From the NCBI GenBank assembly GCA_036337435.1, contig JAYZEG010000095.1, positions 7,393 through 71,392 of the forward strand: a stretch of 64,000 nucleotides of DNA, in the 5' to 3' direction. Below the pieces are notes generated by a model that saw only the letters and a list, made by a program, of their open reading frames with translations, had not been told where the DNA came from and did no database searches. This document shows, piece by piece, positions 14,520 through 20,800 of this stretch. The number at the start of each line of letters is the position of its first letter. The first letter of the stretch is position 1. The position numbers were made by a program, and so were the translations under genes. Source of the DNA: Myxococcota bacterium (GTDB lineage Bacteria; Myxococcota_A; Bradymonadia; UBA7976; UBA1532).

Positions 14520-15149
14520 CTAGAGGTCGCAGAAGAAGGTCGAACCGGTTTCAATGGACACCGTGACCGATTCGTCGATGGGATTTCGAGGCGCTCCTTG
14601 TAGGTCTGTTTGAATGAGGTTTGAACAGGCGACATCGACGTTGAGTCGCGGTTCGTCATACGTGGTCGTTAGCGTGCATGTGCCGGTGTAATTGAACGGT
14701 TTCTCGCTATCGACCTCTCGGTGCATTGCATAGCGATTCACTGAGGTTTCAGGGTCGGCTAGGGAAAGGGATACGCTGCATGAATCAAACTTATTTCCCA
14801 CGGCGTCTTCAGCATTATCCGTGGCTTGTGTGCACGTGTAGGTGTTTGGCGTTGTTGAAAAGCCTTTCACTTTGATGTCGAGGGCGACACCGTTCGAACC
14901 GGTGAATCGGCCAGAAAAGAAGCCTGTATCAGAGTCGTTTTCGCATTCAGCCGCGGTCATAATGATCTCGCCGCCTTCACAGGGTGGGTTTTCTGCGTCA
15001 CCGCATCCGGCTTCGTCTAGAGAAGACGCCACTTGCAACTTGACATATTCCACGACCGTTTCTGAGTTGCCCTCATCACCCAGTCCACATGCTGTGAAGC
15101 TGATCGCAGTTGTGCATAGAACAAGGAGGGGAATGCGTGTATTGATCAT
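14520..15149 (-). CDS. Hypothetical Cys-containing lipoprotein
   Basis: The signal peptide plus lipobox is AISFTACG. There are multiple paired Cys. I recognised no family. Confidence 0.65.
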   Translation of the reverse strand: MINTRIPLLVLCTTAISFTACGLGDEGNSETVVEYVKLQVASSLDEAGCGDAENPPCEGGEIIMTAAECENDSDTGFFSGRFTGSNGVALDIKVKGFSTTPNTYTCTQATDNAEDAVGNKFDSCSVSLSLADPETSVNRYAMHREVDSEKPFNYTGTCTLTTTYDEPRLNVDVACSNLIQTDLQGAPRNPIDESVTVSIETGSTFFCDL

Positions 15150-15502: not shown

Positions 15503-16027
15503 ATGGCAACCGCGAGTCGACTGATCGAAATCCTAAAAGAAACCGCAAAACGGCTTGAATCCGGCGCGACCTACCGCTGGACGCACCAGGGCAGATGTAA
15601 CTGTGGGCATTTGGCGCAGACCATCACCGGTATGAGCCCCGATGATATCCATCAAATCGCCCTCACTGGAGAGGGAGAGTGGCGCGATCATGCGCAGACA
15701 TTCTGTGAAAACAGCGGTCTGGCCGTCGATGACCTGATCACCCAACTCTTAAACGCGGGTTTGACCATCGAGGAGTTGGGTCACCTCGAGTGGCTATCCG
15801 ACCCTGAGGTGCTCAGGTGGGTTCCAAGCGCACAGCTACCCCTCGACTACAAACGCCGATCTGACGTCGTGGCGTACTTCAAGACCTGGGCCAAAGTGCT
15901 TGCCGCCGAGGAAGAACTACGTCGAAATCCGGCAGCCAATGTGGAACTCAATGGCCGTCCCTATGTCCGCCGCTTCAGAGCGGAAACCGCGCTGGATGAA
16001 AATCCCGTCTCCGGCCGAGCCGCCTAG
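15503..16027 (+). CDS. Hypothetical protein (CNCGH motif)
   Basis: It is a clean 174-aa ORF in a divergent intergenic context, with the motif WTHQGRCNCGHLAQ. I recognised no family. Confidence 0.55.
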   Translation: MATASRLIEILKETAKRLESGATYRWTHQGRCNCGHLAQTITGMSPDDIHQIALTGEGEWRDHAQTFCENSGLAVDDLITQLLNAGLTIEELGHLEWLSDPEVLRWVPSAQLPLDYKRRSDVVAYFKTWAKVLAAEEELRRNPAANVELNGRPYVRRFRAETALDENPVSGRAA

Positions 16028-16179: not shown

Positions 16180-19100
16180 ATGGGGATGGTGCGCGTGTTG
16201 ACGACGAATGACTTGATTCGCTTACTGGGTTTGTGTGCGCTCCTGTTTTTTTGTGGCGCGTGCTCCCAGACATCCCGACATCAGACGGTCACCACACAGG
16301 ATACCAAGACAATTGTCGAGGGCACCAAGGAAGACAATTATCCAACGATTGGTGCATTGACGCTGTTGATGCCCGAAGACGACTACACCGGGAGCTTCTG
16401 CACCGGAACCTTGATCGATCCACAGTGGGTGCTCACCGCTGCCCACTGCATCGAGGGGGGGTATGGCCGAATGGGCAATCGGCCTGGTGCCCCAGATGAT
16501 ACATGGTTCCATTTCTTTGTGGGGACGAGGGCAAACCGTCGAGCGACGGGTCGACTCCATCGGGTGGATGAGGTGTTCATCCACCCAGCCTATGGTCAGC
16601 GAGGCGGAAAACGTTTTTATGACATCGCTTTGATGAGGCTGGAAGAGCCCATCGACGATGTTCCAAGTTTTCCGATATTCCGCGACTCTCTTGTCGAGCA
16701 CCAAGGTGCCGAGCTCTTTTATGCAGGCTTTGGCATGACCAATCCTGAAGACCCCGGTTCCAGCGAAGTGAAGTATTCTAAAACGCTCGTATTAGACGCG
16801 GTCTACACAAGAACATACGTGACCCGACAGCAAAATGGTGGGGTGTGTTTCGGGGACTCGGGTGGCCCAGGCTTGCTGACCATCGACGGTGTTCAATACG
16901 TTGTAGGGGTCAATAGTGCGGCCATCGGTCAAGCTGTATGCCGAGGTTGGAGTAGCCAGATCCGTGTTGATGCCTTCAGAAGTTGGATCGACAGCGTCAT
17001 GGAACGCGGCGAGTCATGCCTAGACCGGCCAGGCTTGTGTGAGTGCCAGGCTGCCTGTGGCAATGATGGTATCTGTGATAACGGCGTTTGCCTTGATACC
17101 ACGTGTGGAGAGACTTTCGGCTGTTTACAAAATTGTGACTCGCCAGCATGCCAATTTGGGTGTTTTGCGCAATTGGACCGACTGGAATATTTCCTGTTTG
17201 AGCACTTCTATGCATGCATCGATGCAAACTGTCCTGGAGGGAATGATCAATGTGTTCGTTCGGCCTGTCGACGCGAATTGTTCGCTTGCCAAGTCGGCGT
17301 TGATAATGCTGTCGGAGATGGTGCATGCGATGATGTATACCGCTGTGTGAGTGGCTGTGATCGTCTGTCTTGTGTTGATGGCTGCTATCGAACTGGGACA
17401 TTAAATGCCCAGGCGGCCTACGATCCCGTTGAAGATTGTTTACAGCAGGAGTGTGGAGATGCCGAGGGAGAAGACCTGCTCAGTCAATGTATCTCGCGGA
17501 ACTGCCGCAATGAGCTGTTGTCCTGCATGCCAAATGATCGGTGTCGTCTGGTCGGTGGTGATTGCGATTCGGAGTCGGCCTGCGTACCCGATGTGTGGGG
17601 GGCGACCTATTGCCGTCCAACCGAAGGCCGAGCCGTTGGTGCGCCCTGTGAAATTGGTTCGACGGTGTGCGCTGATGGCACCCTGTGTTTGGGCGGTCCT
17701 GATGGCAGTTTTTGCCATGAAATTTGTGTGACGCGAGGCGATTGTACCGACTCGCCGGGGCCATGCATGCGTTCGGTCAAACCCGGCGCCCCATTTCCCC
17801 TCGGCGTGTGTGAGGGAAGCTGTCTTGATACCGATGGTGACACGGCCTGTGATCCAGACGATTGCGACCCCTTAGACCCAGCCCGACATCCGGGTCATAT
17901 GGAGGTTTGTGATAATGAAACCGACGACGATTGCGACGGCACCGTCGATGAAAACTGTGCTGTATGCGTCGATGGTGACGAGGACGGCGTATGTGCAGAT
18001 GAAGACTGCGATGACAATAATGCGGAGTTAGGGCAAGCCAGTGATGAGGTCTGTGGGGACGACATCGACAATGATTGCAATGGCTTTGTAGACGAAACAT
18101 GCCCGGGCCCAATCGTGCCCGACATGGCTGCGCCTGACATGGATATTAGACCTGATTCCGAGCCGGACGCGACGCCCGTGACCGTTGATCAAGCTGAAAC
18201 CAAGAATTCAGGTGCGGGCTGTGCATGTAACGCATCGTCCGATGGTGGCCATACACCAGCCACCTTGGTCGGCCTACTGGTGATTCTCGCCGGATTTCGG
18301 CGACCGCATCGACTGCGCTCTAAACAATTGGTTATCGGTGCGATCGTGGCCCTCTCATTCCTGAGTGGATGTATTCGAGAAGAGAACATTGATCGTTGGT
18401 TTGATTCAGGCGTTGAGGCTGACCTTACCGTTGACTCTGCGGCCGTTGATGCGTTTATAAGTCTCGATGGTGAGCCGACAGACGAAGACGTGATGCAGCC
18501 GGTGCCCTCCCTCGACATGACGGTCATGACGGACACCTCCCTGGACATGGAGCTCGATGCCGTTCCGCCTGCCGTTATAGATGCAGCCGGTATGGCCGAT
18601 ATGACCACTGCGCCGCCGACCATTAAGAGAATTCAGCAAGGTCAAGTCCAGGTCCTCCAACAGATTTCTTTGACCGATGTCATTGTCGCGTCACCGATTT
18701 GGCGGGGCGGTTTTTTTATCAGTGACCAGACCGCTGAGGCATACAGTGGGTTATGGGTCCAGAATGATTCTCGGGTGAGCACAGGCACGTTAGCACCCGG
18801 ACAGATGATTACCCTGACGGGTTACGCCGAAGAATTTGCCGTCAACAACGGGGGCGAGATGGCCGACCCTGAGGCACAGCGGACCATCGACACCAGAACC
18901 CAATTTCAAATCGAATCGTTCGAAGTGCAAGACCCAGATGACCTCAATCCATTACCTGAACCCATCGAACTCACCTTAGGCGAGGTGTCTATTCCAGATA
19001 TCGCAGAACTGTATGAAGGGGTTCTGATCGCTCTCAACGATGTCTCCGTCACAGGCTTATCTAGGCCGATATTTGAACTCAACGGTGCCATCGATGTTGA

Positions 19101-19698
19101 TCCACGACATATTGAAGGCACCGATGGATGGCTTGTTGATGGCGTCGAGTTTGACCGGATCGTGGGTATCCTTGACTTCGCGGCCAATTCTTATCGACTG
19201 GTGCCCCGGGCCGCCGATGATATGCCGCGACCACCCGTTGATCTCGATGGCTGCATCCCCATGGGTGAATTTTATGCCTTTTGCGCTGAGGGATTTGGGT
19301 GGAGACGATGTATCGATGAGTGTCTGCGTCGGGGTGGCCGCTTGGTGGTCCTTGAAACTCCGGAAGAGAACACGCGCGTCGGCGAGTTAGTGAGCCAATG
19401 GCACGGTGGATCCTTTTGGATTGGCTTGGGCGACCAAATGACCGAAGGGGAATTCGTTTGGATCGATGGTCAACCGTTGGACTATTCCGGCTGGGCGGAC
19501 AACGAACCCAATGATTATGGCAACGGTGAAGATTGCGCCGAAAGCAATTGGCGAGGCATCGGCGTATGGAATGATGGCCGTTGCGGTGGTCGCAGGCCGT
19601 TTGTTTGTGAGTTCGTCGATGGCGTTCCGCCTTGTCGGAACAATGAAGATTGCGGCGGCGCGCAATGCGACGATGGTCGATGCATACCCACTCCCTGA
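16180..19698 (+). CDS. Multidomain surface protein: signal peptide, S1 (trypsin-like) serine protease, Cys-rich region, MopE-type Asp/Cys repeats, internal MYXO-CTERM-like signal, lipobox, beta-rich domain, C-type lectin domain
   Basis: The catalytic triad contexts are TAAHC, DIAL and GDSGGP. The repeat motifs are CDNETDDDCDGTVDENC and CGDDIDNDCNGFVDETC. See the sub-features below. Confidence 0.85.
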   Translation: MGMVRVLTTNDLIRLLGLCALLFFCGACSQTSRHQTVTTQDTKTIVEGTKEDNYPTIGALTLLMPEDDYTGSFCTGTLIDPQWVLTAAHCIEGGYGRMGNRPGAPDDTWFHFFVGTRANRRATGRLHRVDEVFIHPAYGQRGGKRFYDIALMRLEEPIDDVPSFPIFRDSLVEHQGAELFYAGFGMTNPEDPGSSEVKYSKTLVLDAVYTRTYVTRQQNGGVCFGDSGGPGLLTIDGVQYVVGVNSAAIGQAVCRGWSSQIRVDAFRSWIDSVMERGESCLDRPGLCECQAACGNDGICDNGVCLDTTCGETFGCLQNCDSPACQFGCFAQLDRLEYFLFEHFYACIDANCPGGNDQCVRSACRRELFACQVGVDNAVGDGACDDVYRCVSGCDRLSCVDGCYRTGTLNAQAAYDPVEDCLQQECGDAEGEDLLSQCISRNCRNELLSCMPNDRCRLVGGDCDSESACVPDVWGATYCRPTEGRAVGAPCEIGSTVCADGTLCLGGPDGSFCHEICVTRGDCTDSPGPCMRSVKPGAPFPLGVCEGSCLDTDGDTACDPDDCDPLDPARHPGHMEVCDNETDDDCDGTVDENCAVCVDGDEDGVCADEDCDDNNAELGQASDEVCGDDIDNDCNGFVDETCPGPIVPDMAAPDMDIRPDSEPDATPVTVDQAETKNSGAGCACNASSDGGHTPATLVGLLVILAGFRRPHRLRSKQLVIGAIVALSFLSGCIREENIDRWFDSGVEADLTVDSAAVDAFISLDGEPTDEDVMQPVPSLDMTVMTDTSLDMELDAVPPAVIDAAGMADMTTAPPTIKRIQQGQVQVLQQISLTDVIVASPIWRGGFFISDQTAEAYSGLWVQNDSRVSTGTLAPGQMITLTGYAEEFAVNNGGEMADPEAQRTIDTRTQFQIESFEVQDPDDLNPLPEPIELTLGEVSIPDIAELYEGVLIALNDVSVTGLSRPIFELNGAIDVDPRHIEGTDGWLVDGVEFDRIVGILDFAANSYRLVPRAADDMPRPPVDLDGCIPMGEFYAFCAEGFGWRRCIDECLRRGGRLVVLETPEENTRVGELVSQWHGGSFWIGLGDQMTEGEFVWIDGQPLDYSGWADNEPNDYGNGEDCAESNWRGIGVWNDGRCGGRRPFVCEFVDGVPPCRNNEDCGGAQCDDGRCIPTP
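18211..18318 (+). other. MYXO-CTERM/PEP-CTERM-class tripartite sorting-signal-like segment located internally
   Basis: The segment is GAGCACNASSDGGHTPATLVGLLVILAGFRRPHRLR: a Cys motif, a spacer, a hydrophobic helix and an Arg-rich tail. Confidence 0.65.
18319..18372 (+). other. Lipoprotein signal-peptide-like segment (h-region plus lipobox LSGC) immediately after the sorting signal
   Basis: The segment is SKQLVIGAIVALSFLSGC, with the Cys codon at 18370-18372. In-frame alternative starts are GTG 18280 and TTG 18328. Confidence 0.6.
19252..19614 (+). other. C-type lectin-like domain with EPN and WND motifs
   Basis: The domain runs C..FYAFC...W..C...C...GG.LVVLETPEEN..V......FWIGL.D...EG.F.W.DG....Y..W...EPND....EDCA.....G.WND..C....PFVCEF. 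EPN is at 19504-19512 and WND at 19567-19575. Confidence 0.8.
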
Positions 19699-20800
19699 CG
19701 CACTCGTTTGAGTCGTGCGCATGAGATGCGGACGTCGTTTGCAGGGCAACGGCTTTGACCGGCTTGATGGGGTCACTGTCCGCAGGCATAGCCAGGATAC
19801 CCATTGCGGTCTGTTACTCGGGTCGATGGATTCTTGACTGCATTCGAACAGCACTGGCTTGAATTCATCTGTTCTTCATTGTCCTCAGTGGGCCCGGCGG
19901 GTGCGTCTCTGCATGAGACGTCGTCCCTTTTTTGTCGACGTGGCTTTTCTGAGATCCGGTCAGTGAGACACCTGTCCATTGGAAAACGACCATTCAGGCG
20001 GCATCGGAAGAGTCTGGACTAGGTGTGGTTTTAGCCCCGTGCTTTCAATGCCCGACTTTAGCTCACCGACCGACAGTGTCTTGTATGGTCTTGCCGCGAC
20101 CAGTGGCTGTGCTGTCGTTGAAAGTGTCATCTTTTTCATCAACGCGTTCCAGAGCGAGGGCAGGCTGATTTGGTGAGAGACAGTCCGTCTGCGTCTGGGG
20201 CCTCCATTGTTATCCATGGCAGATGCACTGCCGGTGTGGGCTTGTACCTGGGTGTCAGTCATTGGGTGTCTGATCGGTGGTTGACCTTGGTTTTTTTCAC
20301 AATCGGCTGGACCGTCGCAAAAGCGGCACAGTCGACTTGGACTGCTATACTGGAGACGAGCAGCATCGCCGTTCAGACAGGCTACACAGACTTGGCTTAT
20401 CTGTTCTTAGTTTGTTTTTTGTCACCGGCATGACCCTGCTGATGCTGGCTGTTCAGTTCGCAGCGTCGTTCTTGAAACGAGAGCGTCTGGTGGACGTTAA
20501 AAGGGGATCACATCGGTACAGTGGAACGTCTTTACAGGTCCCACCTCAAGACGGTCGCACCAATGGCTGCCAAAGAATGGGTCGAGAACCCGGATGGTAA
20601 GGCGTACCCGCCATTTGGCCCAGGCAAGACGACGAACCCGCCGGACAGATGGTGGTGCCGATGAGTCCATTGAGATGCAGAGGGCGCAACTCTGAGCCAC
20701 GAAAGAGCATCAAGGTGCGAACAAACCGGAGTTTGTCTCGAGAACGGAGTCACCGTGCCTGTCGATAGAGTTGTATTGGTTAATGTAGTATAAGCCCCGT

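What the first reader, a model, noticed from the sequence alone, without database searches (positions are those of the whole stretch)
18211..18372. A C-terminal sorting signal fused head-to-tail to a lipoprotein signal peptide in the middle of a 1172-aa ORF
At about aa 678-713 the frame encodes GAGCACNASSDGGHTPATLVGLLVILAGFRRPHRLR. This is a Cys motif, a spacer, a hydrophobic helix and an Arg cluster. That is the tripartite architecture of MYXO-CTERM/PEP-CTERM-class signals, which normally terminate a protein.

Here the frame continues without a stop into SKQLVIGAIVALSFLSGC. This looks like an N-terminal lipoprotein signal (h-region plus lipobox, Cys731). It is followed by 441 more residues, including a C-type lectin domain.

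There are three possible readings:
- It is a fusion of two formerly separate genes.
- There is internal initiation at in-frame GTG 18280 or TTG 18328.
- It is a genuine out-in-out helical hairpin processed on both sides, by a sortase-like enzyme and by Lgt/LspA. That would release two lipid-anchored surface proteins, a protease and a lectin, from one polypeptide.

The last option would be an undescribed biogenesis route.
Basis: partly seen in the sequence, partly recalled or inferred. Interest (0 to 1): 0.68.

Follow-up and report, generated by a model that had tools for sequence, protein, structure and literature searches.

The report
Two sorting signals fused mid-protein
A conserved bacterial gene joins a surface protease and a sugar-binding lipoprotein through a tail-anchor signal followed directly by a lipoprotein signal, so one precursor is probably cut into two lipid-anchored envelope proteins, which has not been tested.

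Summary
ORF 16180-19698 (1172 aa) carries a MYXO-CTERM-type signal at aa 678-713 and a lipoprotein-type signal ending at Cys731, with no stop between them.

It is not an assembly error:
- At least 35 homologs (33-85% identity, Myxococcota/Bradymonadia MAGs, independent assemblies) have the same single ORF and the same junction.
- In the junction alignment (19% mean identity) the only invariant residues are the two signal cysteines.
- About 80 protease-only relatives end in a true C-terminal MYXO-CTERM, so the internal motif derives from a real terminal signal.
- One sublineage carries the split form: a protease ending in MYXO-CTERM, an ATGA overlap with a GGAGG motif upstream, then a stand-alone lectin lipoprotein whose N-terminal signal is the homologous segment. 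It nests inside the fused clade in 100/100 bootstraps for both halves.

Best reading: an old gene fusion whose junction is an out-in-out hairpin of two cleavable signals. Myxosortase would cut at Cys681 and Lgt/LspA at Cys731. This is inferred, not shown.

Internal initiation has no support. One clade has lost the hydrophobic segments, so processing is not universal. Internal MYXO-CTERM motifs were already noted in the literature for MXAN_5598, so this is a new variant of a known kind.

The parts
16180..19698 (+). Single 1172-aa ORF: protease, Cys-rich region, MopE motifs, MYXO-CTERM-type signal, lipoprotein-type signal, acidic linker, OB-like module, C-type lectin
   Evidence: ORF; Pfam. Compared with its 85%-identical homolog it has the same 3519-nt length, no indels, and far more synonymous than non-synonymous differences.
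16180..16263 (+). N-terminal signal peptide (aa 1-28, ...LLFFCGAC/S). Lipoprotein-type in most homologs; non-canonical lipobox in the window.
   Evidence: N-termini are listed. The PS51257-type pattern is met in 26 of 33 homolog N-termini but not in the window or P0001.
16390..16989 (+). Trypsin-like S1 serine protease domain (aa 71-270). TAAHC His89 is at nt 16435-16449 and GDSGGP Ser227 at nt 16852-16869.
   Evidence: Pfam PF00089 E 5.6e-22; motif positions.
17020..18129 (+). Cys-rich region (49 Cys between aa 281 and 677) including two MopE-type metal-binding motifs (about aa 561-650)
   Evidence: Pfam PF11617 E 1.5e-10, two stretches; Cys count. This region is shared with the protease-only MYXO-CTERM relatives.
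18211..18228 (+). MYXO-CTERM-type signature motif G-A-G-C-A-C (aa 678-683). Cys681 is invariant in 35 of 35 family junctions and is the predicted lipidation and myxosortase site.
   Evidence: TIGR03901 alignment; invariant column C26 of alignment A1.
18253..18297 (+). First hydrophobic segment (aa 692-706, TPATLVGLLVILAGF), predicted to run from outside to inside
   Evidence: Kyte-Doolittle 15-residue mean 2.05. The family median length is 14 residues.
18298..18324 (+). Basic loop RRPHRLRSK (aa 707-715, five Arg/Lys and no acidic residues), predicted cytoplasmic. It serves both as the Arg cluster of the MYXO-CTERM signal and as the n-region of the lipoprotein signal.
   Evidence: R707 is nearly invariant. 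The split form breaks exactly in this loop.
18325..18372 (+). Second hydrophobic segment plus lipobox (aa 716-731, QLVIGAIVALSF-LSG-C). Cys731 (nt 18370-18372) is invariant and is the predicted Lgt/LspA site.
   Evidence: Invariant column C76 of A1. The PS51257-type core is met in 31 of 35 fused members. It is homologous to the N-terminal signal of the stand-alone protein P0181.
18373..18609 (+). Acidic, probably disordered linker (aa 732-810; 20 Asp/Glu and 2 Lys/Arg)
   Evidence: Length and sequence vary across the family.
18610..19245 (+). Beta-rich module of about 212 aa with no Pfam match, modelled as a tandem OB-fold-like domain of unknown ligand
   Evidence: AlphaFold2 pLDDT 91.9 and pTM 0.88. 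Foldseek gives only weak matches (E >= 1.2e-3), all to OB-fold proteins.
19300..19614 (+). C-type lectin carbohydrate-recognition domain (aa 1041-1145) with the EPN motif (nt 19504-19512) and WND motif (nt 19567-19575)
   Evidence: Pfam PF00059 E 2.2e-16. Foldseek matches mannose-binding protein and collectin domains at E about 1e-9 with target-normalised TM up to 0.91. Motif positions.

Best explanation
This is a conserved gene fusion of a MYXO-CTERM-anchored S1 protease with a downstream lipoprotein (tandem OB-like module plus C-type lectin).

The fusion kept both sorting signals. The protease's C-terminal tail signal (Cys motif, helix, Arg cluster) now runs straight into the lipoprotein's signal peptide. 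The Arg cluster doubles as that signal's n-region, and is followed by the h-region and lipobox Cys.

Proposed biogenesis:
1. The N-terminal signal starts Sec export of the protease half.
2. The first hydrophobic segment stops transfer.
3. The basic loop stays in the cytoplasm.
4. The second hydrophobic segment restarts export of the lectin half.
5. Lgt and LspA lipidate and cleave at Cys731, releasing an ordinary lipoprotein.
6. An acyltransferase plus myxosortase MrtX lipidate and cleave at Cys681, releasing a C-terminally lipid-anchored protease for surface display.
7. A hairpin peptide of about 48 residues is left in the membrane.

The outcome would be two separately anchored envelope proteins made one-to-one from one transcript and one translation event.

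Shown here: the fusion, its conservation, the homology of both signals to working terminal signals, and selection on both cysteines. Inferred: the topology and both cleavages.
For: - At least 35 homologs at 33-85% identity, from independent NCBI, ENA, JGI and Logan assemblies, have the same single ORF and junction.
- All 8 informative GTDB species-representative genomes are fused.
- The junction alignment has 19% mean identity, yet its only invariant columns are Cys681 and Cys731. Gly680 and Arg707 are nearly invariant.
- TIGR03901 or TIGR03382 MYXO-CTERM models hit up to 18 of 35 junctions, best E 1.1e-6. The window scores 19.8 bits against a cutoff of 20.
- 79 of 86 protease-only relatives end in a terminal MYXO-CTERM-like tail.
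- The lipobox core pattern is met in 31 of 35 junctions.
- The hydrophobic stretches are short (medians 14 and 13 residues) and the loop is purely basic (median 5 residues). That fits cleavable signals rather than 20-residue anchors.
- A split form exists in two assemblies: protease P0046 ending ...RSRGGRSR*, an ATGA overlap, GGAGG 9 nt upstream, then P0181 starting MSRDGLFRGVIGLALVAASC.
- The split form nests inside the fused clade in 100 of 100 bootstraps for both halves. So the internal signals were good enough to work as terminal signals straight after fission.
- Purifying selection spans the junction: 15 synonymous against 7 non-synonymous differences in the MYXO segment compared with L003.
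- Literature (PMC11980579): MrtX cleaves MYXO-CTERM in a Cys-dependent way and also works in E. coli. The paper states that sorting tags work in mid-protein, citing LPXTG and an ArtA substrate, and proposes processing of the internal MYXO-CTERM of MXAN_5598.
Against: - There is no experimental evidence for either cleavage in this protein or any family member.
- No myxosortase, Lgt, LspA or T2SS gene lies in the 64-kb window, so the machinery's presence in this genome is assumed from taxonomy.
- The window's MYXO-CTERM score falls just below the curated cutoff.
- One clade (P0020, P0021, P0025, P0034; locus L017) has lost the hydrophobicity of both segments while keeping both cysteines. No alternative frame restores them. 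An unprocessed single chain is therefore apparently viable, and double processing cannot be universal in the family.
- I found no precedent for LspA acting on an internal lipoprotein signal in the held literature.
- It is unknown whether MrtX accepts a substrate with a second helix and a large domain downstream.
Confidence: 0.55

Rival explanations
1. Permanent hairpin anchor. The two hydrophobic segments simply tether one uncleaved 125-kDa protein in the inner membrane with both the protease and lectin halves in the periplasm. The signal-like features are relics of the fusion.
For: The degenerate clade (P0020, P0021, P0025, P0034; L017) shows that a single-chain protease-lectin protein without a usable hairpin persists in several lineages. 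There is no direct evidence of cleavage anywhere.
Against: Relics should decay. Instead the two cysteines are the only invariant residues in a region of 19% identity, and the lipobox pattern holds in 31 of 35 members. Stretches of about 13-14 residues are short for stable membrane spans. The fission product works with exactly these segments as terminal signals.
Confidence: 0.17
2. Only one cleavage occurs. For example, LspA releases the lectin lipoprotein while the protease stays anchored by the leftover hairpin. Alternatively, MrtX releases the protease and the lectin half stays on an uncleaved signal-anchor.
For: Each enzyme's tolerance of an internal or extended substrate is untested. No precedent for an internal lipobox was found in the literature. 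MrtX is described only on terminal tags, plus a proposal for MXAN_5598.
Against: Both cysteines are equally invariant. Both signals work independently in the split form.
Confidence: 0.18
3. Internal translation initiation (GTG 18280, TTG 18328 or equivalent) makes the lectin lipoprotein as a separate polypeptide. The full-length read-through product is minor or incidental.
For: In-frame GTG and TTG codons exist. A product starting at V701 (MILAGFRRPHRLRSKQLVIGAIVALSFLSGC) would be a plausible lipoprotein precursor. SD motifs are not universal in this genome, at 12 of 31 genes.
Against: There is no SD-like motif before any candidate start in six fused loci. GTG 18280 is absent in the 85%-identical homolog, and there is no conserved Met or start position across 35 junctions. 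By contrast the true two-gene form has ATG with GGAGG 9 nt upstream. Internal initiation would also leave the protease half still carrying the whole lectin half.
Confidence: 0.07
4. Assembly or sequencing artefact. Two ordinary adjacent genes are joined by a missed stop or frameshift in this window.
For: The adjacent PrsW-like gene in the window is broken across frames, so indels do occur nearby. A split form does exist in nature.
Against: The same uninterrupted ORF appears in at least 35 diverged homologs from independent assemblies and in 8 of 8 informative species-representative genomes. The window and L003 genes are both exactly 3519 nt with no indels.
Confidence: 0.02

Closest known systems
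MYXO-CTERM / myxosortase (MrtX) sorting of Myxococcota surface proteins, prototype TraA (Guo, Haft & Wall 2025, PMC11980579)
   Same: Same tripartite signal: a Cys-containing motif, a spacer of about 10 residues, a helix of about 14 residues, then an Arg-rich tail. Compare TraA ...FCCGTTADATPAGSTTFLLLLAAGLTFLRPRRPAR with ...GCACNASSDGGHTPATLVGLLVILAGFRRPHRLR here. It matches TIGR03901, and the paralogous proteases carry the signal at their true C-terminus.
   Different: Here the signal is internal, with 459 residues following the Arg cluster. It is immediately followed by a second, opposite-sense sorting signal. Cleavage is untested.
MXAN_5598 of Myxococcus xanthus: an internal MYXO-CTERM between an adhesin region and an OM beta-barrel/OmpA region (noted in PMC11980579)
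   Same: An internal MYXO-CTERM that the authors attribute to gene fusion, with proposed processing of the N-terminal part. The TraA/TraB genes overlap like the split form found here.
   Different: It is a single protein mentioned in a discussion paragraph, with different cargo domains. No lipoprotein signal after the tag is described, and there is no family-wide conservation, invariant-Cys analysis or fusion/fission evidence. I could not inspect its sequence.
Bacterial lipoprotein (Sec/SPII) signal peptides processed by Lgt, LspA and Lnt
   Same: A basic n-region, an h-region of 12-15 residues, and the lipobox L-S-G-C with an invariant Cys. The homologous segment is the real N-terminal signal in stand-alone P0181.
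   Different: The lipobox Cys sits at residue 731 rather than within the first 35 or so residues. The n-region is supplied by another signal's Arg cluster.
Haloferax volcanii ArtA substrate with a tripartite PGF-type signal that is not at the C-terminus (Abdul Halim et al. 2017, cited as reference 46 in PMC11980579)
   Same: Experimental precedent that a tripartite sorting signal can be processed when located mid-protein.
   Different: It is archaeal, uses a different enzyme family (archaeosortase) and is a Tat substrate. I could not read the paper because it is not held, so the details rest on the citing sentence.
Vibrio cholerae VesB: a trypsin-like protease with a GlyGly-CTERM tag, cleaved by rhombosortase and displayed through the T2SS (PMC11389362, title and abstract only)
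   Same: An S1 protease anchored to the cell surface through a cleaved C-terminal tripartite tag.
   Different: Different tag and enzyme. The tag is terminal and there is no fused second protein.
Viral polyproteins with internal signal and stop-transfer sequences cut by host signal peptidase, for example flaviviruses (my own knowledge)
   Same: One polypeptide threaded back and forth through the membrane and cut by membrane peptidases at internal signals into separate proteins.
   Different: These are eukaryotic ER systems that use signal peptidase I-type cleavage with no lipid attachment. There is no evolutionary relationship.

Membership tests
MYXO-CTERM sorting domain (TIGR03901 / TIGR03382) | Short signature motif with an invariant Cys (generic GCGC-like) | tested here: met
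   The motif is G-A-G-C681-A-C683. The Cys is invariant in 35 of 35 junctions and the preceding Gly is at least 90% conserved.
MYXO-CTERM sorting domain (TIGR03901 / TIGR03382) | Hydrophobic helix after a short spacer, then an Arg-rich cluster | tested here: met
   Segment 692-706 has a Kyte-Doolittle mean of 2.05 and is followed by RRPHRLR.
MYXO-CTERM sorting domain (TIGR03901 / TIGR03382) | Score at or above the curated HMM cutoff (20 bits) | tested here: not met
   The score is 14.4 bits in the whole protein and 18.8-19.8 bits on the isolated segment. The miss is narrow. 18 of 35 family junctions hit at E <= 0.1, best 1.1e-6.
MYXO-CTERM sorting domain (TIGR03901 / TIGR03382) | Located at the extreme C-terminus of the protein | tested here: not met
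   459 residues follow the Arg cluster. Protease-only homologs do carry the signal at the terminus.
MYXO-CTERM sorting domain (TIGR03901 / TIGR03382) | Myxosortase (MrtX, CPBP family) encoded in the same genome; Myxococcota host | not testable with these tools
   No CPBP gene is among the window's long ORFs and the rest of the genome is unavailable. The related loci come from Myxococcota and Bradymonadia MAGs.
MYXO-CTERM sorting domain (TIGR03901 / TIGR03382) | Cys-dependent cleavage by MrtX and surface display | not testable with these tools
   This needs experiments. It has been shown for TraA only (PMC11980579).
Bacterial lipoprotein signal peptide (Sec/SPII) | Lipobox [LVI][ASTVI][GAS]C preceded by an uncharged h-region (PROSITE PS51257-type core, recalled from memory) | tested here: met
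   AIVALSFLSGC passes the pattern, as do 31 of 35 fused members and P0181. The Cys is invariant.
Bacterial lipoprotein signal peptide (Sec/SPII) | Positively charged n-region upstream of the h-region | tested here: met
   RRPHRLRSK carries five Arg/Lys and no acidic residues. Family loops have a median of 5 residues and are all basic.
Bacterial lipoprotein signal peptide (Sec/SPII) | N-terminal position (Cys within roughly the first 15-35 residues of the precursor) | tested here: not met
   The Cys is at residue 731. It is met in the split ortholog P0181, where the Cys is at residue 20.
Bacterial lipoprotein signal peptide (Sec/SPII) | Diacylglyceryl modification and globomycin-sensitive LspA cleavage | not testable with these tools
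   This needs experiments.
Conserved fusion protein family (Rosetta-stone type) | Same domain order and junction in diverged orthologs, plus a separate-gene form of the two halves | tested here: met
   There are 34 full-length proteins and several partial ones. The split pair is P0046 and P0181. Monophyly is supported in 100 of 100 bootstraps.

The most novel reading that the evidence does not exclude
This would be a bacterial membrane polyprotein. One Sec-exported precursor would be cut at an internal hairpin by two different lipid-dependent sorting peptidases, myxosortase on the outgoing helix and signal peptidase II on the returning helix. That would yield two lipid-anchored envelope proteins, a protease and a lectin, in fixed 1:1 stoichiometry. 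The arrangement has been kept by selection across a whole Myxococcota/Bradymonadia lineage, and gene fission can reverse it at the cytoplasmic loop.
Probability: 0.45. Interest if true: 0.72.

Novelty: new variant of a known kind. Interest (0 to 1): 0.58.

Why it matters
Both signals are known, and an internal MYXO-CTERM has been remarked on once. A conserved family in which a C-terminal tail-anchor signal and an N-terminal lipoprotein signal sit back to back, each under selection, does not appear in the literature I could search.

If both cuts happen, several things follow:
- LspA and myxosortase can act on internal sites.
- Bacteria would gain a polyprotein-style way to make two lipid-anchored surface proteins in equal amounts.
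- It would offer a natural substrate for asking what MrtX and the still-unknown MYXO-CTERM acyltransferase recognise. The paper's leading candidate, Lgt, would here act on two cysteines 50 residues apart and in opposite membrane orientations within one chain.

There is also a practical point for annotation. Tools that look for sorting signals only at protein ends will mislabel such proteins, and gene callers may wrongly split them.

Tried and rejected
- Exact-sequence look-up of the window protein: not on record.
- Search for stand-alone relatives of the C-half with the word-indexed tool: mostly fragments from short contigs. P0125 turned out to be a frameshift-fragmented fused gene in a long-read assembly.
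- Exhaustive HMMER search: swamped by multi-lectin proteins, but it yielded P0181.
- PrsW-family intramembrane protease next to the closest homolog as a dedicated processing enzyme: rejected. It is absent next to four other family members and broken in the window itself.
- A hidden compensated frameshift to explain the degenerate clade: rejected, because the other frames in L017 encode no hydrophobic segments.
- My first automatic picker of the MYXO Cys chose the wrong Cys in several rows. The MAFFT alignment replaced it.
- A strict regex for further internal junctions found nothing, and even missed P0039, so it says nothing about how general the phenomenon is.
- Literature searches for internal lipobox or internal lipoprotein signals gave nothing relevant. 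One search failed on term length. The ArtA paper (PMC5350275) is not held.
- Fold search of the whole C-half saw only the lectin domain. The OB-like module alone gave only weak matches.
Full report
**1. The observation**

The window holds one uninterrupted ORF, 16180-19698 on the + strand, of 1172 aa.
- Residues 678-713 are GAGCACNASSDGGHTPATLVGLLVILAGFRRPHRLR.
- Residues 714-731 are SKQLVIGAIVALSFLSGC.
- Another 441 residues follow.

The other two frames across 18100-18500 are full of stops. Pfam finds these domains:
- a trypsin-like S1 protease at 71-270 (E 5.6e-22);
- two MopE-type Cys motifs around 561-650;
- a C-type lectin domain at 1041-1145 (E 2.2e-16).

The curated MYXO-CTERM model TIGR03901 aligns residues 678-708 to model positions 1-31 of 34. 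It scores 14.4 bits in the whole protein and 18.8-19.8 bits when the segment is scored alone, just under the 20-bit cutoff. The lipobox and its h-region meet the PROSITE PS51257-type core pattern, which I recalled from memory.

**2. It is not an artefact and not a one-off**

A homology search returned P0001 (85% identity, also 1172 aa) and P0002-P0033 (995-1133 aa, 33-46% identity). All carry both Trypsin and Lectin_C, and they come from NCBI, ENA, JGI and Logan assemblies.

Every one has the same junction layout: [G/S]-G-C-x-C, a spacer, a hydrophobic stretch, an Arg cluster, a second hydrophobic stretch, and a lipobox Cys.

A MAFFT alignment of 35 junction segments has only 19% mean column identity. 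Its only invariant columns are the two cysteines, Cys681 and Cys731. The Gly before the first Cys and one Arg are conserved in at least 90% of sequences.

TIGR03901 hits 18 of the 35 segments (best E 1.1e-6) and the sister model TIGR03382 hits 10. The lipobox core pattern holds in 31 of 35.

The window gene and its homolog in L003 are both exactly 3519 nt with no indels. Synonymous differences far outnumber non-synonymous ones in every domain, including the MYXO segment at 15 against 7.

In the GTDB species-representative genomes, all eight informative loci are fused. They come from Myxococcales, Bradymonadia, Myxococcota and "Deltaproteobacteria" MAGs. One of them, L013, is a new Bradymonadia member with a clean junction.

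**3. Where the two signals came from**

The next tier of homologs (P0035-P0120, mostly 650-900 aa) has the protease, the Cys-rich region and the MopE motifs but no lectin. These proteins end in a genuine C-terminal MYXO-CTERM-like tail. My regex finds it in 79 of 86, and most of the rest show it by eye. Several are named MYXO-CTERM proteins by their sources. The internal motif is therefore homologous to a real terminal sorting signal.

The exhaustive HMMER search with the C-half found one clear stand-alone form, P0181 (402 aa). It begins MSRDGLFRGVIGLALVAASCGDD, a textbook lipoprotein signal, and continues into the same OB-like and lectin modules.

Its locus, seen in two Logan assemblies (L010 and L011), is a two-gene arrangement:
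- Protease P0046 (697 aa) ends ...GCRCATRRGPDGAPRLLVPLILVSFSAARRVARAQSGRSRGGRSR*.
- Its TGA overlaps the ATG of P0181 as ATGA.
- GGAGG lies about 9 nt upstream of that ATG.

Bootstrapped neighbour-joining trees give the same result for both halves (first tree):
- Fused plus split forms are monophyletic in 100 of 100 replicates.
- The split pair nests inside the same fused subclade (P0023, P0026, P0028, P0029, P0030, P0032, P0033) in 100 of 100 replicates, for both the protease half and the lectin half.

The simplest history is one old fusion and a later fission by a frameshift in the loop. Several independent fusions from a two-gene ancestor is the less parsimonious alternative.

A search with P0181 found only one more possible split form, P0124. 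It is 56% identical and sits on a 1.8-kb contig. There, another frame ends ...RGRRAP* 64 nt before its GTG start (first seen). Split forms are thus rare and confined to one sublineage.

The fission matters for function. The break falls in the basic loop, and each product immediately has a complete, conventional sorting signal. So the internal signals were being kept in working order while fused.

**4. How it most likely works (inferred)**

Published work (Guo, Haft & Wall 2025, PMC11980579) establishes or proposes the following:
- MYXO-CTERM proteins are exported by an N-terminal signal and held in the inner membrane by the tag's helix.
- They are presumably lipidated on the invariant Cys. The enzyme is unknown and Lgt is the authors' leading candidate.
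- They are cleaved by the CPBP intramembrane protease MrtX in a Cys-dependent way.
- The type II secretion system then moves them to the surface.

Applied here, the steps would be:
1. The N-terminal signal exports the protease half.
2. Segment 692-706 stops transfer.
3. RRPHRLRSK stays in the cytoplasm, following the positive-inside rule.
4. Segment 716-730 restarts export of the 441-residue C-half.
5. Lgt and LspA act at Cys731, and the acyltransferase and MrtX act at Cys681.

Two features fit cleavable signals better than a stable hairpin of two 20-residue helices. The hydrophobic stretches have medians of 14 and 13 residues. The loop is short (median 5 residues) and purely basic.

The products would be:
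- A protease with an intact catalytic His (TAAHC) and Ser (GDSGGP). It would be lipid-anchored at its new C-terminus, and in most homologs at its N-terminus too, since most N-termini are lipoprotein-type.
- A lipoprotein with several parts. An acidic 80-residue linker is followed by a confidently modelled β-rich module (pLDDT 91.9) that resembles tandem OB folds only weakly. Then comes a mannose-binding-protein-like C-type lectin domain carrying the EPN and WND motifs.

**5. Rivals**

- Internal initiation. No SD-like motif precedes any in-frame ATG, GTG or TTG near the junction in six fused loci. GTG 18280 is not conserved in the 85% homolog, and there is no conserved start position. This is weak negative evidence, because only 12 of 31 window genes show an SD-like motif against a 10% background.
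- A permanent uncleaved hairpin, or only one of the two cleavages. Neither can be excluded. The strongest counter-observation to obligatory processing is one clade (P0020, P0021, P0025, P0034; locus L017). Both hydrophobic stretches have decayed there (for example ...GGCSVPRPTVSPVWGLWMRWRGPSPGPSLAGC...), both cysteines remain, and no other frame restores the helices.
- An assembly artefact. The family-wide conservation rules this out.

**6. Relation to what is known**

[quoted passage not shown] It names MXAN_5598 (adhesin, MYXO-CTERM, then OM barrel/OmpA) and suggests a gene fusion. It also proposes that the N-terminal part is processed, citing LPXTG and an ArtA substrate as evidence that tags work in mid-protein. 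The idea of an internal, fusion-derived MYXO-CTERM is therefore not new.

I did not find the following described in the held literature:
- the head-to-tail pairing with a lipoprotein signal that forms a hairpin of two opposite-sense cleavable signals;
- its conservation across a whole family, with both cysteines invariant;
- the fusion/fission evidence.

P0039 (1282 aa) has the same kind of junction between two protease units, each with its own MYXO-CTERM. This hints that such fusions have arisen more than once.

**7. Verdict**

It is a real, conserved gene fusion whose junction consists of two recognisable sorting signals. Double processing into two lipid-anchored proteins is the best-supported mechanism, but it is unproven; I give it about 0.45-0.55. 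I classify it as a new variant of a known kind, of moderate to good interest, and directly testable with tagged constructs, mrtX mutants and globomycin.

Noticed in passing
window 19750-20730 (+), compared with L003:11394-12377: The gene immediately downstream of the fusion gene is an intact 327-aa PrsW-family intramembrane protease in the closest homolog's contig. In the window the homologous region is broken over at least two or three reading frames, so it is a pseudogene or carries local indels. The neighbour is absent next to four other family members, so it is probably unrelated to processing.
   Followed up: partly
P0039 (1282 aa; no locus fetched): This is a tandem protease-protease fusion: lipoprotein signal, S1 protease, MYXO-CTERM (...GCSSAPGATGGGVPLMLLVLAFLWLKRSLPRAAGR), a second lipoprotein-type signal (LGPVALLLGCCVVVHGC), a second S1 protease, and a terminal MYXO-CTERM. 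It is an apparently independent second case of the same junction type.
   Followed up: partly
L017:2689-2790 (P0020); also P0021, P0025, P0034: One clade of the fusion family has lost the hydrophobicity of both junction segments (RWRGPSPGPSLAGC) while keeping both cysteines and the lipobox-like L-x-G/A-C. No alternative frame restores the helices. What these single-chain versions do, and why the cysteines persist, is unexplained.
   Followed up: partly
P0006 and P0013 (L005:6001-9402, L019): Two members have a much longer, very basic segment between the two hydrophobic stretches: 35 residues in P0006 and about 70 in P0013, each with about 12 Arg/Lys. This is compatible with a cytoplasmic loop, but its role is unknown.
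   Followed up: no
alignment A1 (35 junction segments): Eight junction segments also match NCBIfam NF058595, the 'lipo-invert putative C-terminal anchoring domain' (best E 7.7e-4). This recently curated tail-signal model may be related to MYXO-CTERM-type tags.
   Followed up: no
window 16180-16263: The window protein's own N-terminal signal ends FFCGAC (P0001: LQGAC) and fails the strict lipobox pattern, whereas most homologs have canonical L-x-G/A-C. It is unclear whether the protease half here is N-terminally lipidated.
   Followed up: partly
L002:3687-7425: In a pilon-polished long-read metagenome contig the same fused gene is called as four consecutive genes of 423, 331, 308 and 150 aa. 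This is evidently frameshift fragmentation, and it shows how such loci can be mistaken for separate genes.
   Followed up: partly
window 14520-15149 (-) and 15503-16027 (+): Two small ORFs upstream of the fusion gene have no Pfam match. The first (209 aa) starts with a lipoprotein-type signal (LLVLCTTAISFTAC). The second (174 aa) is conserved in the same position upstream of P0001 in L003.
   Followed up: no
window 18610-19245: The 212-residue module between the linker and the lectin domain has no Pfam family, although the AlphaFold model is very confident. It is found almost only in this fusion family.
   Followed up: partly
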